From Nautiliaceae bacterium (GTDB lineage Bacteria > Campylobacterota > Campylobacteria > Campylobacterales > Nautiliaceae): 55,057 nucleotides of DNA. Position 1 is the stretch's first letter. Each line of letters opens with the position of its first letter. The stretch covers positions 1 to 55,057 of the forward strand of contig JALWNI010000058.1 in the NCBI GenBank assembly GCA_027083695.1, in the 5' to 3' direction. The notes below the pieces were generated by a model, which ran no database searches, was not told where the DNA came from, and saw only the letters and a list, made by a program, of their open reading frames with translations. Position numbers and translations under genes: made by a program. This document shows positions 16,520 to 30,173 of this stretch, one piece after another.

Positions 16520-17347
16520 ATGTATTTTTCATATGAAGATATTGACAGATTAATTAACGAAGATATGACTCTTTTTGACTTAACGGAAGAATTACTTAGT
16601 ATTAAAACAAAAGGTAAAATATCTTTTTTTACAAGAAAAGAAGCAGTTGTAACTTCAAATGATTTAATAGAGATGTTATCGAACAGACTAAATTTGACAG
16701 TTACCTTTAAAGAAAAGAATGGTAAATTTATAAAAGCTGGAAGTAAACTGTTTGAATGTGAGGGAGAGAATGTATTAATTCTTTGGAAAATTGCCCAAAA
16801 TATTTATGAATATGCTTTGAGTGTTTCTACATATACTTATGAGATGGTAAAAAAAGCAAAAAAAATTAATCCAAATATAGAAATTTTAACTACAAGAAAA
16901 GTTATTCCTTTTACTAAAAAAATTGCATTAAGTGCAATAATGGATGGAGGTGCCTTGCCTCATAGAGTAACAACAACGGAAACTATTTTAGTTTTTGATA
17001 ATTATATAAATCTTTATGGAGGATGGGAAAAATTTTTTGAAGAATTTAAAAATTTAAAACATAGAGCCATTGAGAAAAAATGGGTAGTTGAATGTGATAA
17101 TTTAGAAAAAGCAAAAAAATTAATAGATTTAAAAATTGATGTAATACAACTAGATAAAGTAGATGTAGAAACAACAAAAAAAATAGTAGAAATTGCTCAT
17201 AGAAAAGATATAAAAGTTTTAAGTGCAGGTGGAATTAATAAAGAAAATATAACAGATTATGTGAAATGTGGAGTTGATGGAATTGTTACAACAGCTCCTT
17301 ATTTTGCAAAAGGAGCTGATGTTAAAGTAGTTATAAATTCTCTTTAA
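16520..17347 (+). CDS. ModD-like protein (quinolinate/nicotinate-nucleotide phosphoribosyltransferase-fold paralog)
   Basis: 275 aa with type II PRTase-like architecture (TTRKVIPFTKK, ALPHR, SAGGIN), but distinct from the bona fide nadC at 29340-30173. The ModD assignment is from memory of the family and is not verified. Confidence 0.6.
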   Translation: MYFSYEDIDRLINEDMTLFDLTEELLSIKTKGKISFFTRKEAVVTSNDLIEMLSNRLNLTVTFKEKNGKFIKAGSKLFECEGENVLILWKIAQNIYEYALSVSTYTYEMVKKAKKINPNIEILTTRKVIPFTKKIALSAIMDGGALPHRVTTTETILVFDNYINLYGGWEKFFEEFKNLKHRAIEKKWVVECDNLEKAKKLIDLKIDVIQLDKVDVETTKKIVEIAHRKDIKVLSAGGINKENITDYVKCGVDGIVTTAPYFAKGADVKVVINSL

Positions 17348-17723
17348 GTTCTTTTACCCATCCTTCCATAACTTCATTAGCAATTAAAGCCGGTGCTTCT
17401 AAAAATGTAATTTCAAATTTATCTTCATATTCTGTAACACCTATACTTCTTGGTCTTACTGCCGGCATTTTCCCATTTGGAAGTTTATTTCCAAAACAAA
17501 ACATAATAAGTTTGCAGTCTTTTATTTCTGGTGCAATTTCTCCATTGATTGATTTTGTATGTGAAAAATGATCAAATTCACCAATATATCTGCAAGTTGG
17601 ATGAGAGTCTATTTTTTCTTTGAAAAATTTAATTATTTCATCTGCACTTTTATAATGAGTTTCATTTTTGAAAACATCAAGTACAAATACAGGATATTTT
17701 TCTTGTAATATCATTTGTTGCAT
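17331..17723 (-). CDS. Hypothetical cytoplasmic protein
   Basis: 130-aa ORF with no recognisable motif. Its 3' end overlaps the convergent ModD-like gene by 17 nt. Confidence 0.55.
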   Translation of the reverse strand: MQQMILQEKYPVFVLDVFKNETHYKSADEIIKFFKEKIDSHPTCRYIGEFDHFSHTKSINGEIAPEIKDCKLIMFCFGNKLPNGKMPAVRPRSIGVTEYEDKFEITFLEAPALIANEVMEGWVKELKENL

Positions 17724-17828: not shown

Positions 17829-18863
17829 TTGGATAGAAGAAAATTTTTAAAGGTTTCATCGATATTTGGCGCTACACCATTATTTGCCAAAAATGATAAC
17901 AGACTTTTTTTTAAATTTCCAAAAAAACCGTTTGAATATTACCATTTAAAATCAAAAAATTCTAAATTTAAAGTTATGCTTATTGGCGGTATACATGGGA
18001 ATGAAATGGGTGCTTATAAAGCGGCTGATTTGTTGATTAATTCAGATATAGAAAAAGGTGAACTTTTAATAATTCCAAGAAGTAATTTTACTTCTATTTT
18101 AGCGGATGTAAGAGGATATAATGGAGATATGAATAGGAAATTTGCTTATATTTCTAAAAAAGACCCGGATTATCATTATGTAGAGCTTTTAAAAAGTGCA
18201 ATTTTAGAATATAGGCCTGATGTTCTTATATCTATGCATGATGGATATGGGTTTAGTATAAGAAATAAAAGAGCATGGGGACAAAGTGTAGTAATTGATG
18301 AATTAAGATATAAAAATTTTAATTTGTTTAGTGAAGCAAATTTTGTAAAAAATCATGCAAATATTTATCTTCCATATAAACTTGGGCTTATTAATACAAA
18401 AACATTTACTTCTCATATTCACGATGAACAAAAAAAAGCATTAACTGGATGGTGTTTGGAACATGGTATAAAAGCATTTTGTATAGAAGCTTCCAAACAA
18501 CTTCCTACTTTAAGTGAAAAAGTAAAAACACATTTAACAATGTTAAGAGAGTTTTTTAAACTTTATGATGTAAAAATAAAAGATATGGATGAAATGATTA
18601 AAAATCCTAAAAAATTTATGGATGATTCAACACCTGTTGTAGAATTAAAAATAAATTCAAGAATTTATAAATATCGTGCTGATAAAAAAATTAAAGTTCC
18701 AAAAGGAAGTGAAATAGTTATAAAATCAATAAATGGACCAAGGGGAAGTTTTGCGGTACCTATTGGTGTGAATTTAAATTGGACAAGTTTTCATGCGAGA
18801 TATTTAACTATTGGTATAAAAAATGATTTTGAAAAAAAATTTAAAATAAAAATTAGGAGTTAA
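17829..18863 (+). CDS. Tat-signal zinc carboxypeptidase, M14-like (AstE/AspA or Csd4/Pgp1 M99-like)
   Basis: TTG start. Twin-arginine motif DRRKFLK, HxxE zinc motif (GGIHGNEMG) and a later His (SMHDGYG). Confidence 0.65.
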   Translation: MDRRKFLKVSSIFGATPLFAKNDNRLFFKFPKKPFEYYHLKSKNSKFKVMLIGGIHGNEMGAYKAADLLINSDIEKGELLIIPRSNFTSILADVRGYNGDMNRKFAYISKKDPDYHYVELLKSAILEYRPDVLISMHDGYGFSIRNKRAWGQSVVIDELRYKNFNLFSEANFVKNHANIYLPYKLGLINTKTFTSHIHDEQKKALTGWCLEHGIKAFCIEASKQLPTLSEKVKTHLTMLREFFKLYDVKIKDMDEMIKNPKKFMDDSTPVVELKINSRIYKYRADKKIKVPKGSEIVIKSINGPRGSFAVPIGVNLNWTSFHARYLTIGIKNDFEKKFKIKIRS

Positions 18864-19469: not shown

Positions 19470-19497
19470 TTGACTTAAAATATTTTTTTGTTATAAT
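19470..19497 (+). promoter_or_regulatory. Near-consensus sigma70 promoter TTGACT-16 nt-TATAAT, upstream of the yedF-to-selB cluster
   Basis: TTGACT at 19470-19475 and TATAAT at 19492-19497, read directly. It would give a leader of roughly 135 nt. Confidence 0.55.
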
Positions 19498-19639: not shown

Positions 19640-20221
19640 ATGAAAATAGATTGTAGAAATTTGGCTTGTCCTGAGCCTGTTTTAAAGACAAAAAAAGCAC
19701 TTGAAGAGATGGAAGAAGGGATTTTGGAAGTATTGGTAAATTCAATTTCTTCTATTCAAAATGTAAAAAGATTTGCACAAAATCAAGGGCTTGTAGCAGA
19801 AGAAGAAAAATTGGATAACGGAGATACGATTATTAGAATTGTAAAAGGATATGAGTGTAGTATAGTTCAACAAGAAGATAATAAAAAATTTTTGGATAAA
19901 GTGCTTTTTATTAAAGATGATAAAGTGGGTGAAGGCGAGCTTGGTCATATTTTGATGGAAGGATTTTTAAAAACTACTCTTGAATTTGACAAACTTCCTG
20001 AAATTGTTGTTTGTGTTAATAGAGGGGTGTTTTTAACTACTAAAAACGAAAAAACAATTGAGATTTTAAAAGAATTTGAAAAAAGAGGGGTTAAAATTTA
20101 TTCTTGTGGGGTTTGTATGAATCATTTCAAAATTCCACCAGAAGAACTTAAAGTGGGAGAAATAGGTAATGCTTACGATACGATGGATTTTTTACTACAT
20201 AAAAATACTATTTCATTATAA
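19640..20221 (+). CDS. yedF: YedF-like selenium-metabolism protein (TusA/SirA head with a DsrE-like tail)
   Basis: N-terminal CPxP motif (NLACPEPV). The C-terminal half (VVCVNRGVFL ... IYSCGVCMNHF) resembles the YedF family as I recall it. Same strand as selD and 2.3 kb upstream of it. Confidence 0.75.
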   Translation: MKIDCRNLACPEPVLKTKKALEEMEEGILEVLVNSISSIQNVKRFAQNQGLVAEEEKLDNGDTIIRIVKGYECSIVQQEDNKKFLDKVLFIKDDKVGEGELGHILMEGFLKTTLEFDKLPEIVVCVNRGVFLTTKNEKTIEILKEFEKRGVKIYSCGVCMNHFKIPPEELKVGEIGNAYDTMDFLLHKNTISL

Positions 20222-20237: not shown

Positions 20238-21353
20238 ATGAAAAGAAGAGATTTTTTAAAAGCAAGTGCAGCAATTGGAGCGTTAAGCGCAGTGCCTAGT
20301 ATGAGTTTTGCGAATGAAGATGAAGTAAGAAAATTTAGAGTGCAATATTTTTTTAATATTAAATATCCAGAAAAAGAGTATCCAGCAAGACTTTGGAATC
20401 CAATGCCTTACAATGCTGATTATCAACATGTAAGAGTATTAAATTTTAATGGAAATTATAATAAATATGATTTAAATAATAATAATGAATATTCGGCAAA
20501 TACATTTTATGCTGAATGGGATAAGTCTGATATGCCAAAAATTGCTTTAATGGAAATGGTAATTGAAACTAAATACAGAAGTGTTCCAATTGAAAAGATA
20601 GAATGGGCTAGCAAACAAAATTTACCTTATCCAAAAGAAGTAAAAAAATATCTTTTACCAACTGCACATATTCCAACTACTGGAATCATTAAAGAATTGG
20701 CTGATAAAATTGTAGGAAATACAAAAGATAGATTTGAAAGAGTGAAAAAAATTTATTATTGGTGTACTGCACATACATATAGGGACAAAAAAGTTATCGG
20801 ATGTGGAAAAGGTGATGTTAAAAAAATGGTGAAACCGGGTAATGTTGAAGATATTTATAAACATGGTTATTTTGGTGGTAAATGTACGGATTTAAGTTCA
20901 TTATTTACTGCACTTGTTAGAGCTGCTGGAATTCCTGCAAGAGAAGTATTTGGAATCAGACTTGGAAAAAGTCATTTTGATAAAGCACTTGGAAAAAGCG
21001 ACAAACATGGATTTGCAAATATTACTACTTGGCAACATTGTAGAGCTGAATATTATATTCCGGGTGCTGGATGGATTCCAACAGACCCAGCAGATATTAC
21101 AAAACTTGAACTTGTAGAAGGCTTAAAATATGATGATCCAAAAGTTCAAACATTAGTGAAAAAATATCTCCATTCGTGGGAAATGAACTGGATGGCGTTT
21201 AATCATGCAAGAGATTTTGTTTTATATCCAAGACCTGTTCAATATCCTCTTAATATGTTTGGATATCCGTATGCTGAGGTTAACGATGATGTATTGAATT
21301 ATTATGTTCCAAAATCATTTGAATATAAAATTACATCTCAGGAACTCTTTTAA
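20238..21353 (+). CDS. Tat-exported transglutaminase-fold (Cys-His-Asp) protein
   Basis: Twin-arginine signal MKRRDFLKASAAIGALSAVPSMSFA. Transglutaminase-core motifs GKCTDLSSLFTALVRAAGIPAR and HCRAEYYIPGAGWIPTDPAD. Confidence 0.8.
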   Translation: MKRRDFLKASAAIGALSAVPSMSFANEDEVRKFRVQYFFNIKYPEKEYPARLWNPMPYNADYQHVRVLNFNGNYNKYDLNNNNEYSANTFYAEWDKSDMPKIALMEMVIETKYRSVPIEKIEWASKQNLPYPKEVKKYLLPTAHIPTTGIIKELADKIVGNTKDRFERVKKIYYWCTAHTYRDKKVIGCGKGDVKKMVKPGNVEDIYKHGYFGGKCTDLSSLFTALVRAAGIPAREVFGIRLGKSHFDKALGKSDKHGFANITTWQHCRAEYYIPGAGWIPTDPADITKLELVEGLKYDDPKVQTLVKKYLHSWEMNWMAFNHARDFVLYPRPVQYPLNMFGYPYAEVNDDVLNYYVPKSFEYKITSQELF

Positions 21354-21931
21354 TGGTAAAACGCATTGATTGTAAAAATTTAGCCTGTCCTGAACCTGTA
21401 ATTAAAACAAAAGAAGCATTAGAAAGTATGGATGAGGGGATTTTAGAAGTTGAGGTTAATTCCTTTTCATCCGTTCAAAATGTAAAAAAATTTGCACAAT
21501 CGCAAGGGTTATATGTCACTGAGAAAAAAGATGGCAAAAATACAATATTGACTATTGTTAAAGGTTATGAATGTGAATTGCCCCCTCAAAAAGAGGATAA
21601 ATCCTTTTGGGCTTTAATAGCTGGGGCTGTAATTACTGCAATTTTAGCTAGCACCTGTTGTTTGGGCCCTCTTTTATTTTTAGTTTTTGGAATTAGTGTG
21701 GGAAGTTTATCTTTTTTACATATATTTGCTCCTTATCATATATATTTTTCAATTGCGGCAGTTTTGATTATTTTATATCTTTGGGGTAATTACTTTTTTA
21801 AACTTAGAAAAAGACCGGTATGTGAGGGTAGCATTTGCAAAAATTATGTGAAATATTTGAGTATTGGGACTATTTTTGTGGCTATTATGCTAACATACCC
21901 ATATTGGGCTCAATTTTTAATAAAGGATTAA
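21353..21931 (+). CDS. Fusion protein: TusA/SirA-like domain joined to a MerT-like three-helix membrane domain
   Basis: NLACPEPV head. TM1 carries vicinal Cys followed by GP (ASTCCLGPLLF). A basic loop carries a second Cys pair (KRPVCEGSICK). Start overlaps the previous stop (TAATG). Confidence 0.75.
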   Translation: MVKRIDCKNLACPEPVIKTKEALESMDEGILEVEVNSFSSVQNVKKFAQSQGLYVTEKKDGKNTILTIVKGYECELPPQKEDKSFWALIAGAVITAILASTCCLGPLLFLVFGISVGSLSFLHIFAPYHIYFSIAAVLIILYLWGNYFFKLRKRPVCEGSICKNYVKYLSIGTIFVAIMLTYPYWAQFLIKD

Positions 21932-21932
21932 A

Positions 21933-22214
21933 ATGAAAAAATTTTTATTTTTAATAATTTTTATGGTTTTTGCTTTTGGAGCAAAAAAAGAAGCTATTAT
22001 AATTGTTGATGGAATGACTTGTCCGTTATGTACAACGGCTGTAAAAAGTTCTTTAAAACACACACCAGGGGTTATAAGTGCAAAAGTAATTTTGCACAAT
22101 AAAACAGCAACTGTTATTTATGATGATACAAAAACAAATCCTAAAAAATTATTAAAAGCAATTGAGATTGTAGGATATAAAGGAAAAATAAAAGAGATAA
22201 AGGATGTAAAATGA
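21933..22214 (+). CDS. MerP-like periplasmic heavy-metal-associated (HMA) domain protein
   Basis: Signal peptide MKKFLFLIIFMVFAFG followed by GMTCPLC in a ferredoxin-like HMA fold. Lies 1 nt after the TusA-MerT gene. Confidence 0.75.
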   Translation: MKKFLFLIIFMVFAFGAKKEAIIIVDGMTCPLCTTAVKSSLKHTPGVISAKVILHNKTATVIYDDTKTNPKKLLKAIEIVGYKGKIKEIKDVK

Positions 22215-22567
22215 AAATTTTATTTATTTTTAATCATGAGCCATATGATGGAAGTGATGTAACTTGGAATGGACTTAGACTTGCAAAAAATTTATTTGAA
22301 AGAGGAGAAGAAGTTAGAATTTTTCTTATGAATGATTCTGTGGATTTGGCAAGAGAATGTAATAAAAAACCTGATAATTATGATTTTGACTTGGTTGAGA
22401 TGTTAAAAGAAATGTATAAAAACGGAGTAAAACTGAAAGTCTGTGGGACTTGTCAGGCTAGATGTGGGCTTTATAAAAATGAGCCTTATTTTGCACCTGA
22501 GATTAAAGGCACAATGAATGATTTGGCAGATTGGGTTCAAACAAGTGATAAAATTTTGACTTTTTAA
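22211..22567 (+). CDS. DsrE/DsrF-like family protein
   Basis: 118 aa with the MKILFIFNHEPYDG ... VCGTCQARCG pattern typical of DsrE-like proteins. ATGA overlap with the upstream gene. Lies 8 nt before selD. Confidence 0.7.
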   Translation: MKILFIFNHEPYDGSDVTWNGLRLAKNLFERGEEVRIFLMNDSVDLARECNKKPDNYDFDLVEMLKEMYKNGVKLKVCGTCQARCGLYKNEPYFAPEIKGTMNDLADWVQTSDKILTF

Positions 22568-22575
22568 GGGAAAAA

Positions 22576-23610
22576 ATGGAATATAAAAACAAAAAACTTA
22601 CAAAATATGTAAAAGCGGCTGGGTGAGCAGGAAAACTGGCTCCGGGAGAGCTAGAAGGTGTGACCTGTTGTCTAGATAAAAAAGCTGAAAATTTAATTGT
22701 AGGATTTGAAGGTAATGAAGATGCAAGTGTTTATAAATTAAGTGATGATATTGCTTTAATTCAAACAGTGGATTTTATTACACCTGTTGTGGATGATCCT
22801 TATCTTTATGGACAGATTGCAGCTGCTAATTCTTTGAGTGATGTTTTTGCTATGGGGGCAGATGTAAAAACTGCTCTTAATTTGGTAGGTTTTGACAGTT
22901 GTCATCATGATAAAGAGACATTAAATGAAATTTTAAAAGGGGGAGAGAGTAAAGTTAAAGAGTGTGGAGGAGTTTTAGCAGGTGGGCATACAATAGAAAC
23001 GCCTGAGATGCTTTATGGATTAAGTGTAACAGGTATTGCTAATCCTAAAAAAATTATAAGAAATAACACAGTTAAAGAAGGTGATTTAATTATTCTTACA
23101 AAACCTCTTGGAATGGGAATTTTAACAACTGCAATAAAAGCGGATTTAGTTGGAATGGATGTAGTATTGAGAGTTGCTGATATTTTAAGAGAACTTAATT
23201 ACAAAACTTCTATTTTGGCAAGAGAAGTTGCAAATGCAATGACTGATGTTACAGGATTTGGACTTTTGGGGCATTTGTATGAGATGAGTGCGGATAAAAT
23301 GGGCATAAAAGTTTATTTTGAAAAAGTGCCTTATTTAAAAGAAGCAATAGAGATGGCAAGTATGGGAATAATTCCTGCTGGAAGTTACAATAATCAGGAA
23401 TTTTTAAAAGATAAAGTTGAGAAAAAAAGAGAGCTTAGTTTTGAAGAAGAGATGATTTTGTATGATGCTCAAACAAGCGGAGGACTTTTGATAAGTGCAG
23501 AAGAAAAAGAGGCTTTTAATTTAGTGAATAAATTAAAGAATGAAGGAGTAAATGCTTCTATAATCGCGGAAGTTAGCAAACAAGAGGAAAAGCCTTTAAT
23601 TATTTTATAA
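22576..23610 (+). CDS. selD: Selenide, water dikinase (selenophosphate synthetase), a selenoprotein with UGA-encoded Sec17
   Basis: ATG at 22576 after AAGGG. The reading MEYKNKKLTKYVKAAG-U-AGKLAPGELEG aligns with E. coli SelD LTQYSHGAGCGCKISP. The in-frame TGA at 22624-22626 sits at the catalytic Cys17 position, with Lys20 conserved. The ORF track starts only at 22660. Confidence 0.9.
22636..22654 (+). promoter_or_regulatory. Candidate bacterial SECIS hairpin for the selD UGA
   Basis: CTGGCTC-CGGGA-GAGCTAG forms a 7-bp stem (one G-U pair) with a G-rich apical loop. It begins 10 nt after the UGA. A possible lower stem is CAGG (22628-31)/CCTG (22664-67). Confidence 0.6.
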
Positions 23611-23658: not shown

Positions 23659-25005
23659 ATGCAAAATCTTTTTAGGCAGATTCCTAAAGTTGATAAATTA
23701 ATTCAGAAATTTAAAAAGCATGATAAAGATATTATTTCAAAAATAACAAAAGAGATAATTGAAAAATTAAGAGAAGATATAAAAAATAAGAAAATTACTG
23801 AAATTAATGAAAATAAAATTTTAGAGAATATAGAAAAAAAATATAAAGATATATTATCTCCTTCAATTAAAAATGTAATAAATGCCACAGGAGTTATTAT
23901 TCACACAAATCTTGGAAGAAGTTTGATTGATGAAGAGGTTTTTGAAAAAGCAAAAAAAATCAGTACGCATTATTGTAATCTTGAATATGATTTAGATAAA
24001 GGCAAAAGAGGAGATAGATATCATCATACGGCAAAACATTTGAGTTTTCTTTTTGGCAGTGAAGATGCGTTGATTGTAAATAATAACGCTGCGGCAGTGT
24101 TTTTAATTCTTAACACTTTTGCAAAAAACAAAGAAGTTATTGTTTCAAGAGGTGAGCTTGTAGAAATCGGAGGAAGTTTTAGAGTGCCGGAAGTTATGAA
24201 TGCAAGCGGAGCTATTTTAAAAGAAGTTGGAACCACCAATAAAACTCACAGGAAAGATTATATAAATGCAATTAATGAAAATACTGCAATGCTTATGAAA
24301 GTTCATAAATCAAATTATTCTATTGAAGGTTTTAGTGCTGAGGTTTTTTTTGATGAAATTATAAAAATGGCAAGAGAATATAAATTACTTGATTATTATG
24401 ATTTAGGAAGTGCATATGTGCCAAAACTTCCATATTCATTAAGTAATTATGAACCTTCAATTCTTGAAATTATGAAATATAATCCAAGCTTAGTGAGTTT
24501 TAGCGGAGATAAACTGTTTGGAGGAGTTCAAGCTGGAATTATTCTTGGGAAAAAAGATCTTATAGCAAAACTTAAACAAAATCAGATTTTAAGAATGTTT
24601 AGAGTTGATAAAATAACAATATCTCTTATTGAAGAGACTGCAATTGCATATATTAAGAAAAATTACGATAAAATTCCAACATTAAAAATGCTTTTTACTT
24701 CTGTGGATGAACTTGAAAAAAGAGCTGAAAGATTTTTATCTTTTGTTCCATCGCTAAAAGCCAAAATAATAGAAACTTATACATATGTAGGCGGTGGAAC
24801 AATGCCAAATAAAAAAATTCCTAGTATTGCAGTGGCAATTGATGGAAATGCTAAAAAATGGGAAGAAAAGTTTAGAAAAAATCTTGTAATCGGCAGAATT
24901 GAAAATGAAAAATTTTTACTTGATTTTAGGACAATTCAAGAAGATGAAATAGAAAAATTAGCACAAATTACAAATGAATTATTAAGCTGTAAGGTAGAAA
25001 AATGA
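23659..25005 (+). CDS. selA: L-seryl-tRNA(Sec) selenium transferase
   Basis: 448 aa of the SelA family (NATGVIIHTNLGRS, FSGDKLFGGVQAGII with the PLP lysine). Overlaps selB by 4 nt. Confidence 0.95.
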   Translation: MQNLFRQIPKVDKLIQKFKKHDKDIISKITKEIIEKLREDIKNKKITEINENKILENIEKKYKDILSPSIKNVINATGVIIHTNLGRSLIDEEVFEKAKKISTHYCNLEYDLDKGKRGDRYHHTAKHLSFLFGSEDALIVNNNAAAVFLILNTFAKNKEVIVSRGELVEIGGSFRVPEVMNASGAILKEVGTTNKTHRKDYINAINENTAMLMKVHKSNYSIEGFSAEVFFDEIIKMAREYKLLDYYDLGSAYVPKLPYSLSNYEPSILEIMKYNPSLVSFSGDKLFGGVQAGIILGKKDLIAKLKQNQILRMFRVDKITISLIEETAIAYIKKNYDKIPTLKMLFTSVDELEKRAERFLSFVPSLKAKIIETYTYVGGGTMPNKKIPSIAVAIDGNAKKWEEKFRKNLVIGRIENEKFLLDFRTIQEDEIEKLAQITNELLSCKVEK

Positions 25006-26831
25006 GACATATAATTATTGGGACTGCTGGGCATGTAGACCATGGTAAAACATCTTTAATTGAAGCAATGACAGGTTATAATGGAGATGAGTTAAAAGAA
25101 GAAAAAGAAAGAGGTATTACAATTGATTTATCTTTTACAAATATGAAAAGAGATGATGTAAATGTAGCTTTTATAGATGTTCCAGGGCATGAGAAGTTAG
25201 TAAAAAATATGATTAGCGGTGCTTTTGGATTTGATGCTACACTTTTTGCTATTGATGTAAATGAAGGGATTATGCCTCAAACAATTGAGCATTTGGAAGT
25301 TTTGAATATTTTAAAAGTTCAAAATATTATTGTGGCTCTTACAAAATGTGATTTGGCAAGTGAAGAATTAATAGAAAAACGAAAAGAAGAGATAAAAGAA
25401 CTTATTAAAAATTATAAAAATTTAAAATTACTTAATATTATTCCAACTTCAATAAAAGATAAAGAGTCTATTGAAAGGCTTAAAGATTATCTTTTTAATC
25501 TGCCTCCTAGAAAATTAAATACTTCAAAATTTTTTAGATATTACATAGATAGAGTGTTTTCTCTAAAAGGTATAGGAACAGTTGTAACAGGGACGGTTCT
25601 TAGCGGTAATTTGAAAGTAGGAGATAAAGTTTATGTTAATGAGCTTGAAAAAATTATTAATGTAAAAAATCTTCAAGTCCATGGAGAAAATGTAAATGAA
25701 ATATTTACTCATGAAAGAGCAGCAATAAATCTTAATATTCCTCATAAAGAACTTCAAAAAGGATATTTATTAAGTTCAAAAGGCTATCTTAGAGGATTTA
25801 AATTAATTGATGTATATATTGAGCCTGTAAATGGTAAAGAAATAGCACATAATATGGATGTATTGTTTATTAGTGGAGCAAAAAGAATTCCGGGTAAAAT
25901 ATTAATGTTTAATCCAAATGACAAAAAAGGTTATGCTACTATTAAATTAAAAGAAAAAGCATATCTTGTTTATAAAGACCCTTTTGTAGTTCTTCATAAT
26001 GGTAGAGTTGTTGGAGGAGGCGAAATATTAAATCCAATAGCAGATCCTATTAAAAAAAGAAAAAAAATTGAATTATTAAAAGAATTAAAAGAGTCTAATT
26101 TTAAAAAAGCATTTGAAATTTTAGTTGAGAATCATAAAAGAGGATTCGGTCTTTTGCAAAGTTATCAAAGATTTAATTTAACTCCAAAAGAAGCACTAAA
26201 TATTGCAAAAGAGCTTGATAATGTATTTATTGATGAAGAAAATTATAATGTTTTTCACAAAAATGTAAGAGGCGAGATTAAAAAAATCATTAAAGATATT
26301 TATGAAAAAAATGCTTTGGCTTTTCTATCTCCTGCATCTGTGAAACTTAGGATAAAATGGGCAAGTGAAGGTATTATAAAATCTGTTATGGATGAATTGG
26401 TAGAAGAGGAATTTTTGGTAAAAGAAGGCTCAATTTATAAAAAAAGAGATGTGGCAAATGCAAATGTTGAAAAATCAGTAGAAAATAGACTTCTTGCCAT
26501 ATTAGAAAACTCTGGTGCTACACCCGAAGCACCTTATAATATTTATGAAAAACTTAATATTGATAGAAAAGTTGGAGATAATACAATGAAAAAATTGACT
26601 TCTGCCAAAAAAGTAGTAAGACTTGCTCATAATATATTTGTAGCAAGCAATCATTTGAATAATATGATAAATAAAATGAAAGAGATAATTAAAAAAAGAG
26701 GTTATATTGATGTCAAAATTTTCAAAGAAGAGATGCCAATGAGTAGGAAATATATAGTTGCGTATTTGGATTATTTAGATCAAATGGGGGATATAATTAA
26801 GATAGATAATAAAAGATATTTAAAATCTTGA
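25002..26831 (+). CDS. selB: Selenocysteine-specific translation elongation factor
   Basis: 609 aa with GTPase motifs GHVDHGKT, DVPGHEK and TKCD, plus a long C-terminal extension consistent with SECIS-binding winged-helix domains. Confidence 0.95.
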   Translation: MRHIIIGTAGHVDHGKTSLIEAMTGYNGDELKEEKERGITIDLSFTNMKRDDVNVAFIDVPGHEKLVKNMISGAFGFDATLFAIDVNEGIMPQTIEHLEVLNILKVQNIIVALTKCDLASEELIEKRKEEIKELIKNYKNLKLLNIIPTSIKDKESIERLKDYLFNLPPRKLNTSKFFRYYIDRVFSLKGIGTVVTGTVLSGNLKVGDKVYVNELEKIINVKNLQVHGENVNEIFTHERAAINLNIPHKELQKGYLLSSKGYLRGFKLIDVYIEPVNGKEIAHNMDVLFISGAKRIPGKILMFNPNDKKGYATIKLKEKAYLVYKDPFVVLHNGRVVGGGEILNPIADPIKKRKKIELLKELKESNFKKAFEILVENHKRGFGLLQSYQRFNLTPKEALNIAKELDNVFIDEENYNVFHKNVRGEIKKIIKDIYEKNALAFLSPASVKLRIKWASEGIIKSVMDELVEEEFLVKEGSIYKKRDVANANVEKSVENRLLAILENSGATPEAPYNIYEKLNIDRKVGDNTMKKLTSAKKVVRLAHNIFVASNHLNNMINKMKEIIKKRGYIDVKIFKEEMPMSRKYIVAYLDYLDQMGDIIKIDNKRYLKS

Positions 26832-26932: not shown

Positions 26933-27283
26933 TCAGCCAGCAGGTATTTTACCCTCAACAATACCAACTAAAAAGTCTTCTAAATCTTTTAGTTTTCTTT
27001 TGTTGTGGGCAAAATATTTTTCAATAATTTTTGCTGCTTTTTTGTAACCTTTTTTTTCAAGTATTTGAATTAAAGGTTTTGCATCATCTTTAAATAATGC
27101 TTTTAATTGAGATGGTGTCTGAACGCCTAAAATTTGAACCATCTTTGTCGCTTTAATATGCGTTTTGTGAGTGATATATCTTTTGTAATATCTGAAACCT
27201 TTGTTGTAGTCTGCAAACACGGCAGTTGTTCCAACACTCGCAAGTAGCAAACCTGCTACTAAAGCATTTCTGAACAATTTCAT
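26933..27283 (-). CDS. Small secreted/periplasmic hypothetical protein
   Basis: The internal ATG at 27283 has an AGGAG RBS and opens a clean signal peptide, MKLFRNALVAGLLLASVGTTAVFA. The 169-aa track ORF would run through tRNA-Sec, so its upstream part is spurious. Confidence 0.65.
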   Translation of the reverse strand: MKLFRNALVAGLLLASVGTTAVFADYNKGFRYYKRYITHKTHIKATKMVQILGVQTPSQLKALFKDDAKPLIQILEKKGYKKAAKIIEKYFAHNKRKLKDLEDFLVGIVEGKIPAG

Positions 27284-27316
27284 TTGAGTCTCCTTTAAAA
27301 ATTTAACTGCATTTAT

Positions 27317-27345
27317 ATTATAACATTGAATGAGAAAAATTTCAA
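27317..27345 (-). promoter_or_regulatory. Candidate promoter TTGAAA-17 nt-TGTTATAAT for the small periplasmic protein gene
   Basis: Read on the minus strand: TTGAAA at 27345-27340 and TATAAT at 27322-27317, with an upstream TG. Confidence 0.45.
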
Positions 27346-27354
27346 GAATATAAT

Positions 27355-27380
27355 AAAAAGTTATGAATAAAGATTCATAG
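27355..27380 (-). terminator. Hairpin plus T-run immediately after tRNA-Sec
   Basis: TATGAAT-CTTT-ATTCATA on the minus strand, followed by ACTTTTTATT. Confidence 0.45.
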
Positions 27381-27386
27381 GGGTTT

Positions 27387-27485
27387 TGGCGGAAGGGGGT
27401 AGGAATCGAACCTACCGGGCAAGCAGTCACCTGCCGCCCCATCGGGTTTGAAGCCCGAGGTGTCCACCAGGATCACATCCCCTCC
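27387..27485 (-). tRNA. selC: tRNA-Sec (anticodon UCA)
   Basis: 99 nt. The minus strand reads GGAGGGGATGTGATCC...GGGCTTCAAACCC...GGTAGGTTCGATTCCTACCCCCTTCCGCCA. It has anticodon loop CTTCAAA, a long variable arm (GGGGCGGCAGGTGACTGCTTGCCC), an extended acceptor stem and an encoded CCA. Confidence 0.92.
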
Positions 27486-28384: not shown

Positions 28385-29347
28385 TTAATGAAAAATTTTG
28401 TGATTTATAAAAATTGCCAGCATAAAAATTAAAAGCATAAAAACGCTCATGGCTATTGCATATTTTCTATAAGTTTTTGCTTTTTTTTCTTCCCACCATG
28501 TTTTAGGTTTGATTCCTTGAAATCTAAATGTAATAACACCAGATAAAATAAGACTTACAACATTTATTAAAAATAAAAGCAAAGCCGAAACAGAAAATAT
28601 AATATACCCTCCCCCAAGCAGCATTCCACTTGCTACGAGAGGTGGAAGGAGTGAGATTGCAACCATTACACCTACAAGACTCAAATTATAGCCTGTTGTA
28701 AAAGCTAAAACTCCGGCAATCCCTGAGGATATAGCAATAATAATATCTGAATAGTGAAGATGTATTCTTGAACTTATTTGTGATAGATTAGGAGAGATAT
28801 GAAGTAAAAAACCAAATAAAACAGCTAGCATATAAGCAATAAAACTGCCACTAAAAAGAGCTTTAAATCCTTTTTTGACTAAATTCATATCCCCTAATGT
28901 AATTCCAAAAGATGCCGCAATATTTGGTCCAAGCAGAGGTGCTATTACCATTGCTCCTATAATTACTGCAACGTTATTTGTTGCAAATCCAAATATTGCT
29001 ATTAATGCAGATAAAACAAGCATTATAAAATAGATATAGTTTATTTCTGTTGAATGCAAAATTTTGGCATATAACTCTTCTCTGCTTACTTTTATCCTCT
29101 TTTTAGTCGATGTTTGGGGAGTTGGAAGTGTGGTGATTACATCTAATACGATAATTCTTATATCTTTTATTTTGTTTAATTTATCGATTAAAGTTTGTGA
29201 ATAGGGAGTTTGTATTAAAATTTTGTAGGCAAGTTTGTTTTTATATGACTCTTCTTGCCAATAATCTACAATTCCTTTGGTATTGAATATATTTTTTAAA
29301 TCATCTTTACTTTCTTTTGGTAAAATAATTTCTATTAATCTATACAT
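28385..29347 (-). CDS. DUF389 / TIGR00341-like integral membrane protein
   Basis: Soluble N-terminal domain followed by about 6 TM helices, with IGAMVIAPLLGPN typical of DUF389 (from memory). Confidence 0.7.
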   Translation of the reverse strand: MYRLIEIILPKESKDDLKNIFNTKGIVDYWQEESYKNKLAYKILIQTPYSQTLIDKLNKIKDIRIIVLDVITTLPTPQTSTKKRIKVSREELYAKILHSTEINYIYFIMLVLSALIAIFGFATNNVAVIIGAMVIAPLLGPNIAASFGITLGDMNLVKKGFKALFSGSFIAYMLAVLFGFLLHISPNLSQISSRIHLHYSDIIIAISSGIAGVLAFTTGYNLSLVGVMVAISLLPPLVASGMLLGGGYIIFSVSALLLFLINVVSLILSGVITFRFQGIKPKTWWEEKKAKTYRKYAIAMSVFMLLIFMLAIFINHKIFH

Positions 29348-30173
29348 TTTCTATTTTCATTGAAAAATCTTTAAATGTCGCTTGATGAATAATAGCACCG
29401 CTGCTTACTGCGTCAATACCTAAATTTTCATACTCTTTTATATTTTCAAGTGTAATATTCCCGCTTGCTTCAAGCAGTATTGAGGGATTGTTTTTATTTC
29501 TGTATTCTACTACTTTTTTGATAGTCTCAAAATCCATATTATCACACATTACAATATCTGCACCAGCTGAGATGGCTTCTTTTGCCTGCTGTAAAGTTTC
29601 ACATTCAATTTCTATTTTTGTGGTAAAAGGTATTGAATTTCTTGCAATTTGTATAGCTTGTGTAATTGATTTAAATGTTGCGAGGTGAGTATCTTTTAGC
29701 ATCAAACAATCATCAAGTCCAAGCCTGTGATTTGTAACTCCCCCACATTTACTTGCATATTTTTCAAAAGTCCTAAGAAGTGGTCTGGTTTTTCTAGTAT
29801 CGAGTATTTTTAATTTTTTTGCATGTTTGGTAAATTTGTATGCATTAGAAGCTATTCCGCTTGCATGTTGTAAAATATTTAAAATACTTCTTTCTATACT
29901 TAAAATATCTTTTGCATTTCCGCTGATTATAAAAATAACATCGCCTTCTTTATAAAAATCACCATCATCAAAATTAAAATCAAATTTTACATCGGCTAAG
30001 TAACTGAATTTTTTAATATATTCTATTCCAGCGACAACTCCTTCACTTTTTGCAATAATTTTGGCATTGATTAATCTGTTTGGAATAAGTTCTCTTGCTA
30101 AATCGCCCCTTCCTATATCTTCTTTTAAAACCTCTTTTAAGAAATCTATTATCTGGAAATTCATCAGATTCAT
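29340..30173 (-). CDS. nadC: Nicotinate-nucleotide diphosphorylase (carboxylating)
   Basis: 277 aa of the QPRTase family (DTRKTRPLLR, HRLGLDD, LEASGNI). Overlaps nadA by 4 nt. Confidence 0.93.
   Translation of the reverse strand: MNLMNFQIIDFLKEVLKEDIGRGDLARELIPNRLINAKIIAKSEGVVAGIEYIKKFSYLADVKFDFNFDDGDFYKEGDVIFIISGNAKDILSIERSILNILQHASGIASNAYKFTKHAKKLKILDTRKTRPLLRTFEKYASKCGGVTNHRLGLDDCLMLKDTHLATFKSITQAIQIARNSIPFTTKIEIECETLQQAKEAISAGADIVMCDNMDFETIKKVVEYRNKNNPSILLEASGNITLENIKEYENLGIDAVSSGAIIHQATFKDFSMKIENV

What the first reader, a model, noticed from the sequence alone, without database searches (positions are those of the whole stretch)
21353..22214. TusA domain fused to a MerT-like membrane domain and paired with a MerP-like protein, outside any mer operon
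The 192-aa product joins a TusA/SirA head, with its CPxP cysteine (NLACPEPV), to a three-helix membrane domain. That domain keeps both MerT cysteine pairs in their expected places. The vicinal CC followed by GP sits in helix 1 (ASTCCLGPLLF). A second pair sits in the basic loop between helices 2 and 3 (KLRKRPVCEGSICKNY). One nt downstream is a signal-peptide HMA protein with GMTCPLC, the MerP arrangement. In mer operons MerP and MerT pass Hg(II) between dithiol pairs to MerA. Here MerA, MerR, MerB and MerC are all absent, and the cytoplasmic acceptor is physically fused as a sulfur/selenium carrier domain. The pairing is conceptually parallel to the YeeE/YedE permease with a TusA-like YeeD/YedF partner. 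I do not know of a characterised TusA-MerT fusion.
Basis: partly seen in the sequence, partly recalled or inferred. Interest (0 to 1): 0.8.

Follow-up and report, generated by a model that had tools for sequence, protein, structure and literature searches.

The report
Mercury-type transporter repurposed for selenium supply
A membrane protein built like the bacterial mercury importer MerT, fused to a sulfur/selenium-carrier domain, sits with two periplasmic partners inside the operon that makes selenocysteine, so it is most likely an undescribed route for bringing selenium into the cell.

Summary
ORF 21353-21931 encodes a TusA domain fused to a MerT domain that passes Pfam's cut-off. It is followed by a signal-peptide HMA protein (CxxC) and a DsrE-like protein.

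The genes lie in one co-directional block, yedF, transglutaminase-like, tusA-merT, HMA, dsrE, selD (Sec-containing), selA, selB, with tRNA-Sec next door.

Across about 95 related loci the invariant core has three genes: an exported transglutaminase-like protein, (TusA-)MerT and HMA. The TusA head is sometimes absent, and DsrE is restricted to one clade.

- No mer gene ever accompanies the cassette. The nearest non-cassette MerT sits in a true mer cluster.
- SelD lies within 3 kb in 12 of 16 fused loci with adequate flanks, in at least seven different gene arrangements. These include the most divergent fusion (Sulfuricurvum: selU-selD-TGase-TusA-MerT-HMA).
- All relay cysteines are invariant.

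Best reading: a cysteine-pair relay that imports selenium and hands it to SelD, mechanistically parallel to Hg(II) import.

I found no description of this fusion or cassette in the searchable literature. The substrate is inferred, not shown. One clade lacks an adjacent SelD, and one locus abuts sox genes, so sulfur trafficking remains a live rival.

The parts
19470..19497 (+). Best sigma-70-like promoter match upstream of yedF; a possible operon promoter
   Evidence: TTGACT-16-TATAAT with an extended TG, 11 of 12 positions matched. The count of such sites in the region is not above shuffled expectation, so this is only suggestive.
19640..20221 (+). yedF, selenium-metabolism type (TusA-like N-domain plus DsrE-like C-domain with CGxC)
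   Evidence: TIGR03527 scores 197.7 bits (cut-off 110) over the full length. C10, C156 and C159 are invariant in 25 of 25 sequences.
20238..21353 (+). Exported (TAT-signal) transglutaminase-like protein; the invariant upstream partner of the MerT gene
   Evidence: Transglut_core 73 bits plus a TAT signal; invariant C216-H267-D283 triad plus invariant C189 and C268; it lies within 300 bp upstream in 31 of 32 fused loci and 12 of 12 unfused loci; confident model (pLDDT 85); nearest structures are uncharacterised cysteine-protease-like proteins (3isr, TgpA).
21353..21931 (+). TusA(YedF-N)-MerT fusion: cytoplasmic carrier head (residues 1-75), linker, then three TM helices with CC in TM1 and Cx4C in the cytoplasmic loop
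21933..22214 (+). Periplasmic HMA protein (MerP-like architecture) with a signal peptide and GMTCPLC
   Evidence: HMA 58.6 bits. MerP model 56.7 bits, below its 92.55 cut-off. CxxC present in 67 of 67 sequences; present downstream of the MerT gene wherever the sequence extends far enough.
22211..22567 (+). Stand-alone DsrE-like protein with a CGTCxxxC motif (clade-specific accessory)
   Evidence: DsrE 68.4 bits. C78, C81 and C85 invariant in 17 of 17 sequences; present in 16 loci.
22577..23610 (+). selD (selenophosphate synthetase), read through an in-frame UGA at 22625-22627 (selenocysteine)
   Evidence: the sequence reads ATG...KAAG-TGA-AGKLAPGE. TIGR00476 scores 327.7 bits, but the match starts at model position 34 in the GTG-started ORF, so the N-terminus lies upstream of the UGA.
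23659..25005 (+). selA (selenocysteine synthase)
   Evidence: the orthologous gene in Caminibacter (L087) carries PF03841 SelA; conserved synteny.
25002..26831 (+). selB (Sec-specific elongation factor)
   Evidence: the orthologue carries GTP_EFTU plus WHD_3rd_SelB..
27391..27485 (-). tRNA-Sec (selC)
   Evidence: ARAGORN, anticodon TCA. Rfam RF01852, 67.6 bits (gathering score 47).

Best explanation
The transglutaminase-like protein, the (TusA-)MerT protein and the HMA protein form a three-gene module that acquires selenium for selenophosphate synthesis. It works by passing the element from cysteine pair to cysteine pair, as the mer system passes Hg(II).

Proposed path:
1. In the periplasm, the exported transglutaminase-like protein (Cys-His-Asp triad plus two further invariant cysteines) captures or releases selenium from an environmental form. 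The HMA protein holds it on its CxxC pair, most plausibly as a selenotrisulfide (S-Se-S).
2. The vicinal CC pair in TM1 of the MerT domain takes it over. It then passes to the Cx4C pair in the positively charged cytoplasmic loop.
3. The fused YedF-type TusA head (CPxP cysteine plus two more conserved cysteines) receives it. In unfused versions a free carrier would do this.
4. The DsrE-like protein and/or YedF (CGxC motifs) deliver it to SelD. SelD makes selenophosphate for SelA (Sec-tRNA) and MnmH (selenouridine).

Shown here: domain identities, topology, invariance of every relay cysteine, the invariant three-gene core, absence of mer genes, and repeated linkage to SelD, SelA, SelB, YedF and MnmH.

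Inferred: that the substrate is selenium, its chemical form, the direction of transport, the order of hand-offs, and the role of the transglutaminase-like protein.
For: 1. Operon context in the window. The block yedF, TGase, tusA-merT, HMA, dsrE, selD(U), selA, selB has overlapping or 1-nt-spaced genes, and tRNA-Sec is adjacent.
2. SelD lies within 3 kb in 12 of 16 fused-form loci with adequate flanks. By inference, a 6-kb span of a roughly 2-Mb genome would contain a given gene by chance about 0.3 % of the time.
3. The linkage survives rearrangement. At least seven distinct arrangements occur. They include the most divergent full-length fusion, Sulfuricurvum L096 (selU-selD-TGase-TusA-MerT-HMA), and Nitratifractor L097.
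4. MnmH (368 bits, cut-off 241) lies beside unfused cassettes.
5. The head is 64 % identical to the N-domain of the selenium-type YedF in the same operon, and its best NCBIfam hit is TIGR03527.
6. No mer gene appears in any cassette locus. Just below the score gap, the non-cassette MerT P0274 sits with a MerA-like reductase, HMA, MerB and glutaredoxin.
7. Every proposed relay cysteine is invariant or nearly so in MerT, TusA, HMA, DsrE, YedF and the TGase-like protein.
8. Topology places the head and the Cx4C loop in the cytoplasm.
9. The TusA head superposes on YeeD in the YeeE-YeeD chalcogen-uptake complex.
10. From my own knowledge, not tested here: SelD is reported to accept selenium from protein-bound perselenides, and selenite reacts with dithiols to give selenotrisulfides.
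Against: - There is no direct evidence for the substrate. Everything rests on genomic association and motif logic.
- A whole clade (Sulfurospirillaceae/Arcobacter-like: L032, L038, L041, L088, L090, L091, L095) has no SelD within 8-10 kb. In L088 the cassette follows a sox cluster with DsrE and a thioredoxin.
- TusA and DsrE are classically sulfur carriers.
- I could not test whether the cassette occurs only in SelD-positive genomes, or whether it is anti-correlated with YedE.
- The role assigned to the transglutaminase-like protein is speculative. Its nearest structures are uncharacterised.
- The MerT part of the model has only moderate confidence (pLDDT 53-80).
Confidence: 0.55

Rival explanations
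1. Sulfur trafficking. The module imports sulfane sulfur (polysulfide, persulfide or thiosulfate-derived S) and loads it onto TusA and DsrE for sulfur relay or oxidation. The proximity to selenium genes would reflect shared chalcogen chemistry, or dual S/Se specificity.
For: - TusA and DsrE are canonical sulfur carriers. Foldseek's top hits are TusA and YeeD of the thiosulfate uptake complex.
- In L088 the cassette directly follows SoxCD, SoxYZ, SoxA, SoxB, DsrE and a thioredoxin.
- Hosts are sulfur-metabolising Campylobacterota.
- Several loci lack an adjacent SelD.
Against: - The sox linkage appears in one lineage only. SelD, SelA, SelB, YedF or MnmH linkage appears in at least seven arrangements across the whole family.
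- The head is specifically of the YedF type. Published comparative genomics ties YedF to SelD-containing organisms (PMC5322559, PMC4607533).
- A trace-element relay through stoichiometric cysteine pairs suits nanomolar selenium better than bulk sulfur flux (inference).
Confidence: 0.17
2. A classical heavy-metal function. MerT and MerP-like proteins import Hg(II) or another thiophilic metal (Cu, Ag, Cd) for detoxification, or to keep it away from the selenium pool.
For: - The membrane domain is MerT-family above Pfam's cut-off, with all four Hg-binding cysteines.
- HMA proteins bind Hg and Cu.
- Vent habitats are metal-rich.
- Databases name the protein 'mercuric transporter MerT family'.
Against: - No MerA, MerB or MerR occurs in the window or in about 95 related loci. 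Importing Hg(II) without a reductase would be harmful.
- Scores are far below the NCBIfam equivalog cut-offs: MerT 46.9 against 150, MerP 56.7 against 92.55.
- The cassette clade is separated from mer-context MerT by a score gap of 113 or more bits against 45 or fewer.
- The window is housekeeping chromosome, not a mobile element.
Confidence: 0.07
3. A transmembrane thiol-disulfide (reductant) conduit. The MerT cysteine pairs would shuttle reducing equivalents, not an element, from the cytoplasmic TusA and DsrE proteins to keep the periplasmic transglutaminase-like enzyme and the HMA protein reduced, in the manner of CcdA or DsbD.
For: - Alternating cysteine pairs lie on both sides of the membrane.
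- The periplasmic partner has three invariant cysteines.
- Thioredoxin-like or DsbH-like genes neighbour several loci.
Against: - To my knowledge, no MerT-family protein is known to act as an electron or disulfide conduit.
- TusA is not a known reductant donor.
- This reading does not by itself explain the SelD linkage, unless the periplasmic enzyme processes selenium. In that case it becomes a variant of the main explanation.
Confidence: 0.07
4. Selenium export or detoxification. The relay would run outwards, removing excess reactive selenium from the cytoplasm.
For: - Direction cannot be read from sequence.
- YedE was once proposed as a possible exporter (PMC5322559).
- Some vent fluids may be selenium-rich.
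Against: - Co-transcription with the biosynthetic consumers SelD, SelA and SelB fits supply better.
- The architectural parallel is to an importer (MerP to MerT to a cytoplasmic acceptor).
- A dedicated periplasmic capture protein and an enzyme are unnecessary for export (inference).
Confidence: 0.05

Closest known systems
Mer system Hg(II) relay (MerP, then MerT, then the N-terminal HMA domain of MerA)
   Same: - A periplasmic HMA protein with CxxC.
- A three-helix membrane protein with a vicinal CC in TM1 and a second cysteine pair in the cytoplasmic TM2-TM3 loop.
- A cytoplasmic cysteine-bearing acceptor.
- Pfam MerT matched above its cut-off, and all four cysteines align.
   Different: - No MerA, MerB or MerR.
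- The acceptor is a fused TusA/YedF-type domain rather than an HMA domain.
- The loop pair is Cx4C (CxC in Sulfuricurvum) rather than Cx5C.
- Only about 29 % identity to mer-context MerT, and below the NCBIfam equivalog cut-offs.
- An obligatory transglutaminase-like periplasmic partner.
- Chromosomal selenium-operon context.
YeeE/YeeD (TsuA/TsuB) thiosulfate uptake and the related YedE/YedF (FdhT/FdhU) putative selenium system
   Same: - A membrane chalcogen transporter paired with, or fused to, a TusA-like cytoplasmic carrier.
- The head domain superposes on YeeD in structure 8k1r.
- YedF is encoded in the same operon.
- Linkage to SelD, as reported for YedE and YedF (PMC5322559).
   Different: - The membrane part is MerT family (3 TM, PF02411), not YeeE/YedE (PF04143; about ten TM per PMC5322559).
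- There are periplasmic partners (HMA and the transglutaminase-like protein), which that system lacks.
MerTP fusion (NF033556) and the MerT/CopZ fusion-like selenoprotein (NF045683)
   Same: A MerT domain fused to a small soluble cysteine-bearing domain. Weak hits to both models (44.7 and 35.2 bits).
   Different: - Those fuse an HMA domain at the C-terminus. Here a TusA domain is fused at the N-terminus (cytoplasmic side) and HMA is a separate secreted protein.
- Scores are far below their cut-offs (180 and 375).
- No selenocysteine in this protein.
Selenium-type YedF (TIGR03527)
   Same: The N-domain is 64 % identical over 84 residues. The DCxxxxCPxP and GYxC cysteines are shared.
   Different: [quoted passage not shown] A separate DsrE-like protein is encoded two genes downstream.

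Membership tests
MerT (Pfam PF02411) | Match to the family HMM above the curated gathering score, over the full domain | tested here: met
   38.8 bits against 32.9; profile positions 9-114 of 116.
MerT (Pfam PF02411) | Vicinal Cys-Cys in TM1, plus a second cysteine pair in the cytoplasmic TM2-TM3 loop | tested here: met
   C102 and C103 are invariant. C157 is invariant and C162 is present in at least 90 % of sequences. They align with the cysteines of mer-context MerT. Spacing is Cx4C rather than Cx5C.
MerT (Pfam PF02411) | Three TM helices, N-terminus and TM2-TM3 loop in the cytoplasm | tested here: met
   helices at 85-115, 120-151 and 165-190; loop 2 net charge +4.2, loop 1 has no K or R, the C-tail is acidic.
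Mercuric ion transporter MerT, equivalog (NCBIfam NF010314) | Score above the equivalog cut-off | tested here: not met
   46.9 bits against a cut-off of 150.
mer operon membership | Co-location with merR, merA or merB | tested here: not met
   No such gene in the window or in about 95 related loci. Positive control: P0274 does sit in a mer context.
mer operon membership | Hg(II) transport activity | not testable with these tools
   Requires uptake or sensitivity assays.
MerP (TIGR02052) | Secreted HMA fold with GMTCxxC, and a score above the equivalog cut-off | tested here: inconclusive
   The architecture is met: signal peptide, HMA 58.6 bits, CxxC in 67 of 67 sequences. The MerP model scores 56.7 bits against 92.55, similar to the scores for CopZ models.
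TusA/SirA (Pfam PF01206) | HMM match above cut-off, with a conserved CPxP cysteine | tested here: met
   65.1 bits against 28.6. C12, P13 and P15 invariant; structural match to 3hz7 and TusA.
Selenium-metabolism YedF (TIGR03527) | Two-domain TusA-like plus DsrE-like architecture, scoring above the cut-off | tested here: not met
   62.9 bits against 110; only model positions 1-80 of 194 are matched. The window's true YedF (19640-20221) scores 197.7 bits.
YeeE/YedE-type chalcogen transporter with TusA-like partner | Membrane domain of the Sulf_transp (PF04143) family | tested here: not met
   the membrane domain matches MerT only.
Transglutaminase-like cysteine protease superfamily (PF01841), for the upstream partner | HMM match above cut-off, with an intact Cys-His-Asp triad | tested here: met
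   73 bits against 23. C216, H267 and D283 invariant. Foldseek hit to 3isr at E 3e-14.

The most novel reading that the evidence does not exclude
Campylobacterota of sulfidic and hydrothermal habitats possess a dedicated, previously unrecognised selenium-uptake machine. An exported transglutaminase-like enzyme and a MerP-like protein capture selenium. A MerT-type membrane protein carries it across as a selenotrisulfide on successive cysteine pairs. A fused YedF-type carrier hands it to SelD. On this reading, the mercury-import mechanism is one specialisation of a more general thiol-relay import principle for soft chalcophile elements.
Probability: 0.45. Interest if true: 0.85.

Novelty: new variant of a known kind. 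Interest (0 to 1): 0.7.

Why it matters
How bacteria specifically acquire trace selenium and deliver it safely to selenophosphate synthetase is still largely open. The reviews and comparative-genomics papers I read (PMC5322559, PMC9312934) list YedE only as a predicted selenium-related transporter and YedF as a protein of undefined function.

This cassette offers a concrete, testable alternative route with a chemically explicit mechanism: ligand exchange between cysteine pairs. Every step has an identifiable residue to mutate.

It would also change how 'MerT family' annotations are read in vent and sulfidic metagenomes, where they could otherwise be taken as evidence of mercury cycling. Finally, it assigns a first functional context to a very well conserved family of exported transglutaminase-like proteins (2,263 database hits).

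Tried and rejected
A phyletic test of cassette against selD and yedE across genomes was therefore not possible.
2. I tried to show that the cassette replaces YedE by inspecting YedF-only loci (L075-L086). Their neighbours are SelD and class-V aminotransferases, not YedE. No conclusion was possible and the idea was dropped.
3. PDB sequence search for the transglutaminase-like protein found nothing. For the fusion profile it found only a SirA-like domain.
4. The fold search found no solved structure matching the MerT part.
5. The SECIS-like hairpin after selD's UGA folds at -13.9 kcal/mol but z = -0.7 against shuffles, so it is not used as evidence. The Sec reading rests on the in-frame extension to ATG 22577 and the missing N-terminal model positions.
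6. Promoter and terminator scans are not above shuffled expectation, so they are only suggestive of operon boundaries.
7. I considered a mobile mer element. This was rejected because the surrounding genes are housekeeping: nusG, nadA and nadC, bamA, flagellar genes and glyQ.
8. I considered thiomolybdate or thiotungstate import, because a TtrA-like molybdoenzyme sometimes neighbours the cassette. There is no specific support, and it is less parsimonious than selenium.
Full report
**1.

ORF 21353-21931 (+) encodes 192 aa containing NLACPEPV, ASTCCLGPLLF and KLRKRPVCEGSICKNY. One nucleotide after its TAA stop, ATG 21933 opens a 93-aa ORF with a hydrophobic leader and GMTCPLC. ORF 22211-22567 overlaps that ORF's stop by 4 nt.

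Pfam assigns the domains as follows:
- TusA, residues 3-68: 65.1 bits.
- MerT, residues 86-188: 38.8 bits against a gathering score of 32.9, covering profile positions 9-114 of 116.
- HMA for the second protein: 58.6 bits.
- DsrE for the third: 68.4 bits.

NCBIfam's equivalog models for MerT (46.9 bits against 150) and MerP (56.7 against 92.55) are not reached. The best NCBIfam hit for the head is the N-terminal 80 positions of the selenium-type YedF model TIGR03527.

**2.

- Upstream lies a full-length selenium-type YedF (19640-20221; TIGR03527, 197.7 bits against 110).
- Next comes a TAT-signal transglutaminase-like protein (20238-21353), whose stop overlaps the fusion's start codon.
- Downstream, SelD (TIGR00476, 327.7 bits) matches its model only from position 34 when started at GTG 22660.
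- The frame continues upstream through TGA 22625-22627 to ATG 22577 (...KAAG-U-AGKLAPGE...). SelD here is therefore a selenoprotein.
- SelA and SelB follow.
- tRNA-Sec lies at 27391-27485 on the minus strand (Rfam 67.6 bits).
- The rest of the window is housekeeping chromosome: nusG, nadA and nadC, ppx, bamA, flgK, flgI and glyQ. No mer gene appears among the ORFs scanned.
- The window is about 87 % identical in DNA to a Nautiliaceae MAG (L001).

**3. The fusion is a conserved family**

- A word-indexed search found at least 162 clusters (90 % identity), all carrying PF01206 plus PF02411. Where named, they come from Caminibacter, Lebetimonas, Nautilia, Sulfurospirillaceae, Arcobacter, Nitratifractor and Campylobacteraceae.
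- An exhaustive HMMER scan of 1.84 billion representatives (50 % clusters) found only 8 hits at E ≤ 1e-30. Just four of these cover both domains. The most divergent, P0282, is from Sulfuricurvum. All named members are Campylobacterota.
- In a 33-sequence alignment, C12 (CPxP), C102, C103 and C157 are invariant. C162, C7 and C74 are present in at least 90 % of sequences.
- The head is 64 % identical over 84 residues to the N-domain of the YedF encoded 1.1 kb upstream, including the C7 and C74 equivalents. The protein is best described as a YedF N-domain whose DsrE-like half has been replaced by a MerT membrane domain.

**4. Structure and topology**

- The AlphaFold model (pLDDT 73) shows a TusA α/β fold at residues 1-70, a low-confidence linker, and helices at 85-115, 120-151 and 165-190.
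- Foldseek matches the head to a SirA-like protein (3hz7), to TusA, and to YeeD within the YeeE-YeeD thiosulfate-uptake complex. Nothing in the PDB matches the MerT part.
- Across the family, the TM2-TM3 loop carrying Cx4C has a net charge of +4.2. The TM1-TM2 loop has no K or R, and the C-tail is acidic.
- So the head and the loop cysteine pair are cytoplasmic, as in the accepted MerT topology.
- Aligned with MerT proteins from genuine mer clusters, all four cysteines and the ASTCCLGPL motif coincide. Identity is about 29 %, and the loop spacing is Cx4C rather than Cx5C.

**5. The real conserved unit has three genes**

I collected 86 loci from genome and metagenome scans. Eleven further loci came from exact-protein look-ups. 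Three of those, L092-L094, are the mer-context controls described in section 6.

- The transglutaminase-like gene lies within 300 bp upstream of the MerT gene in 31 of 32 fused loci and 12 of 12 unfused loci with enough sequence.
- An HMA gene follows wherever the sequence extends far enough.
- Unfused versions, with MerT alone (about 110-130 aa) and the same two partners, exist in Sulfurimonas and other organisms (L005, L006, L057-L072, L090). On a rough NJ tree of the MerT domain they are scattered among the fused forms, with about a dozen state changes. The tree is built on a short alignment and some unfused entries may be partial calls. The TusA head appears to have been lost or gained repeatedly.
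- DsrE occurs in only 16 loci.
- The transglutaminase-like family is large (2,263 hits) and strongly conserved; its top 120 hits are at least 57 % identical.
- It keeps the C216-H267-D283 triad, plus invariant C189 and an invariant C268 adjacent to the catalytic His.
- Some members carry Sec-type rather than TAT leaders. Its model is confident (pLDDT 85, pTM 0.85).
- Its nearest structures are uncharacterised: a 'putative cysteine protease' (3isr) and the periplasmic domain of TgpA.
- The partners' cysteines are invariant too: HMA CxxC in 67 of 67, DsrE CGTCxxxC in 17 of 17, YedF CPxP and CGxC in 25 of 25.

**6. Selenium, not mercury**

No cassette locus contains MerA, MerB or MerR.

A search with the MerT domain alone shows a sharp gap. 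Cassette-type proteins score 113 bits or more, and the next hits score 45 or less. One of those lower hits, P0274, sits between a pyridine-nucleotide disulfide reductase (MerA-like), HMA, MerB and glutaredoxin. That is a positive control showing what a mer context looks like.

SelD, by contrast, lies within 3 kb in 12 of 16 fused-form loci with adequate flanks. It does so in at least seven different arrangements:
- yedF-TG-TM-HMA-dsrE-selD-selA-selB
- selA-selB-TG-TM-HMA-selD-HAD
- TG-TM-HMA-selD-HAD
- TG-TM-HMA convergent with HAD-selD
- selD divergent from TG
- TG-TM-HMA-yedF-dsrE-selD
- selU-selD-TG-TM-HMA in Sulfuricurvum, the deepest-branching fusion

MnmH (368 bits against 241) neighbours unfused cassettes in L070 and L072. 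Linkage that persists through this much rearrangement is the classic signature of functional coupling.

**7. Exceptions and the sulfur rival**

A Sulfurospirillaceae/Arcobacter-like clade has no SelD within 8-10 kb (L032, L038, L041, L088, L090, L091, L095).

- In L088 the cassette follows a sox cluster, a DsrE gene and a thioredoxin.
- In L041, L060 (the same sequence as L090 and L091) and L095, and also in the Nautiliales-type L007, the cassette lies 2.3-4.3 kb from a double-cubane-cluster reductase (453 bits against 350) and its ATP-dependent activase. In L007 this pair directly abuts yedF.
- The STRING table of Lin et al. 2015 links those two families (2-hydroxyglutaryl-CoA-dehydratase-like and its activase), and also 'transglutaminase-like enzyme', to YedE, YedF or the LysR-like regulator in Slackia (PMC5322559). 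This is an indirect second thread to selenium and is not decisive.
- Sulfur trafficking, or dual S/Se specificity, therefore remains a live rival.

**8. Mechanism**

I propose a thiol-relay import. The order of hand-offs below is inferred.

1. The periplasmic transglutaminase-like protein and the HMA protein capture selenium.
2. It passes to the CC pair in TM1 of MerT.
3. It passes to the cytoplasmic Cx4C pair.
4. It passes to the TusA head (C12, with C7 and C74).
5. It passes to DsrE and/or YedF (CGxC).
6. It reaches SelD.

Chemically, a selenotrisulfide (RS-Se-SR) is the chalcogen analogue of Hg(SR)2 and can move by the same ligand exchange. That point, and SelD's reported preference for protein-bound selenium donors, come from my own background knowledge and were not tested here. 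The substrate, the direction and the enzyme's role are all inferred.

**9. Literature**

Searches combining MerT, TusA, YedF, transglutaminase-like, SelD, FdhT/FdhU and the relevant genera found no description of this fusion or cassette.

- The selenium comparative-genomics papers do not mention MerT (PMC5322559; PMC4607533).
- Reviews and Haft's preprint know MerT-family selenoproteins only as presumed heavy-metal transporters.
- The search covers only open-access text, so an earlier mention elsewhere cannot be excluded.

**10. Verdict**

The finding is real and richer than stated. It is a new variant of a known kind: a MerT/MerP-type cysteine relay with a new obligatory periplasmic partner and a fused YedF-type acceptor, embedded in selenium-utilisation operons. 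Function is inferred from context, and the experiments are straightforward. Interest 0.7.

Noticed in passing
window 22577-23610: selD is a selenoprotein. Mechanical ORF calling starts it at GTG 22660, but the frame runs from ATG 22577 through TGA 22625-22627. A hairpin follows at 22639-22651, but its folding energy is not distinctive (z = -0.7).
   Followed up: partly
L063:10599-11096 (-), and 13 other loci (e.g. L002, L003, L028, L044, L066, L070): A small HAD-like gene of about 165 aa (weak Hydrolase_3 and HAD-IIB hits) sits immediately next to selD, or directly after the HMA gene, in 14 cassette loci. It is not present in the window. It may be another uncharacterised selenium-linked gene.
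   Followed up: partly
L090:2475-4549 (-); also L007, L041, L060, L091, L095: A double-cubane-cluster anaerobic reductase (NF040772, 453 bits) and its ATP-dependent activase recur 2.3-4.3 kb from the cassette's transglutaminase-like gene; in L007 the pair directly abuts yedF. The same two families appear in STRING links to YedE, YedF or the LysR-like regulator in Slackia (PMC5322559, Table 1). A very low-potential reductase beside selenium genes might reduce Se(0) or a selenotrisulfide to selenide. This is speculative.
   Followed up: partly
L001:4197-7591 and L019:3498-6971: A 1,157-aa TtrA-like molybdopterin oxidoreductase, fused to an N-terminal 4Fe-4S (TtrB-like) module, is inserted between yedF and the transglutaminase-like gene in close relatives. 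It neighbours the cassette in 9 loci and is absent from the window. Its substrate is unknown; tetrathionate, polysulfide or selenite are candidates.
   Followed up: partly
L088:1-8740: In one Sulfurospirillaceae contig the cassette lies directly downstream of a sox cluster (SoxCD, SoxYZ, SoxA, SoxB), a DsrE gene and a cytochrome-c/thioredoxin fusion. This is the main support for a sulfur-related reading.
   Followed up: partly
L090:4860-6569, L091, L060: A SelO-family (PF02696) gene sits immediately upstream of the transglutaminase-like gene in one unfused-MerT lineage.
   Followed up: no
L096:8001-8612 (P0282, Sulfuricurvum): In the most divergent fusion the cytoplasmic loop motif is C-x-C (ECDCEPS) rather than Cx4C, and the called HMA gene is only 61 aa.
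   Followed up: no
window 26933-27388 (-): This ORF is conserved next to tRNA-Sec in L001, L007 and L087. It has a signal-peptide-like segment and matches no Pfam or NCBIfam family. The mechanical ORF call overlaps the tRNA-Sec gene, so the true start must lie further downstream.
   Followed up: partly
window 16520-17347 (+) and 29340-30173 (-): The 275-aa ORF 16520-17347 finds a second match in L001 (16715-17548, -) besides its own syntenic counterpart. The window ORF 29340-30173 is nadC with full QRPTase domains and sits next to nadA. The two window ORFs may therefore be quinolinate-phosphoribosyltransferase-family paralogues, but 16520-17347 was not scanned against any family library and the two were not compared directly.
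   Followed up: no
window 17331-17723 (-) and 17829-18863 (+): A DUF6858 protein (181 bits) and a Peptidase_M99 (helical-cell-shape carboxypeptidase family) gene lie just upstream of the selenium block. There is no evident link to it.
   Followed up: no
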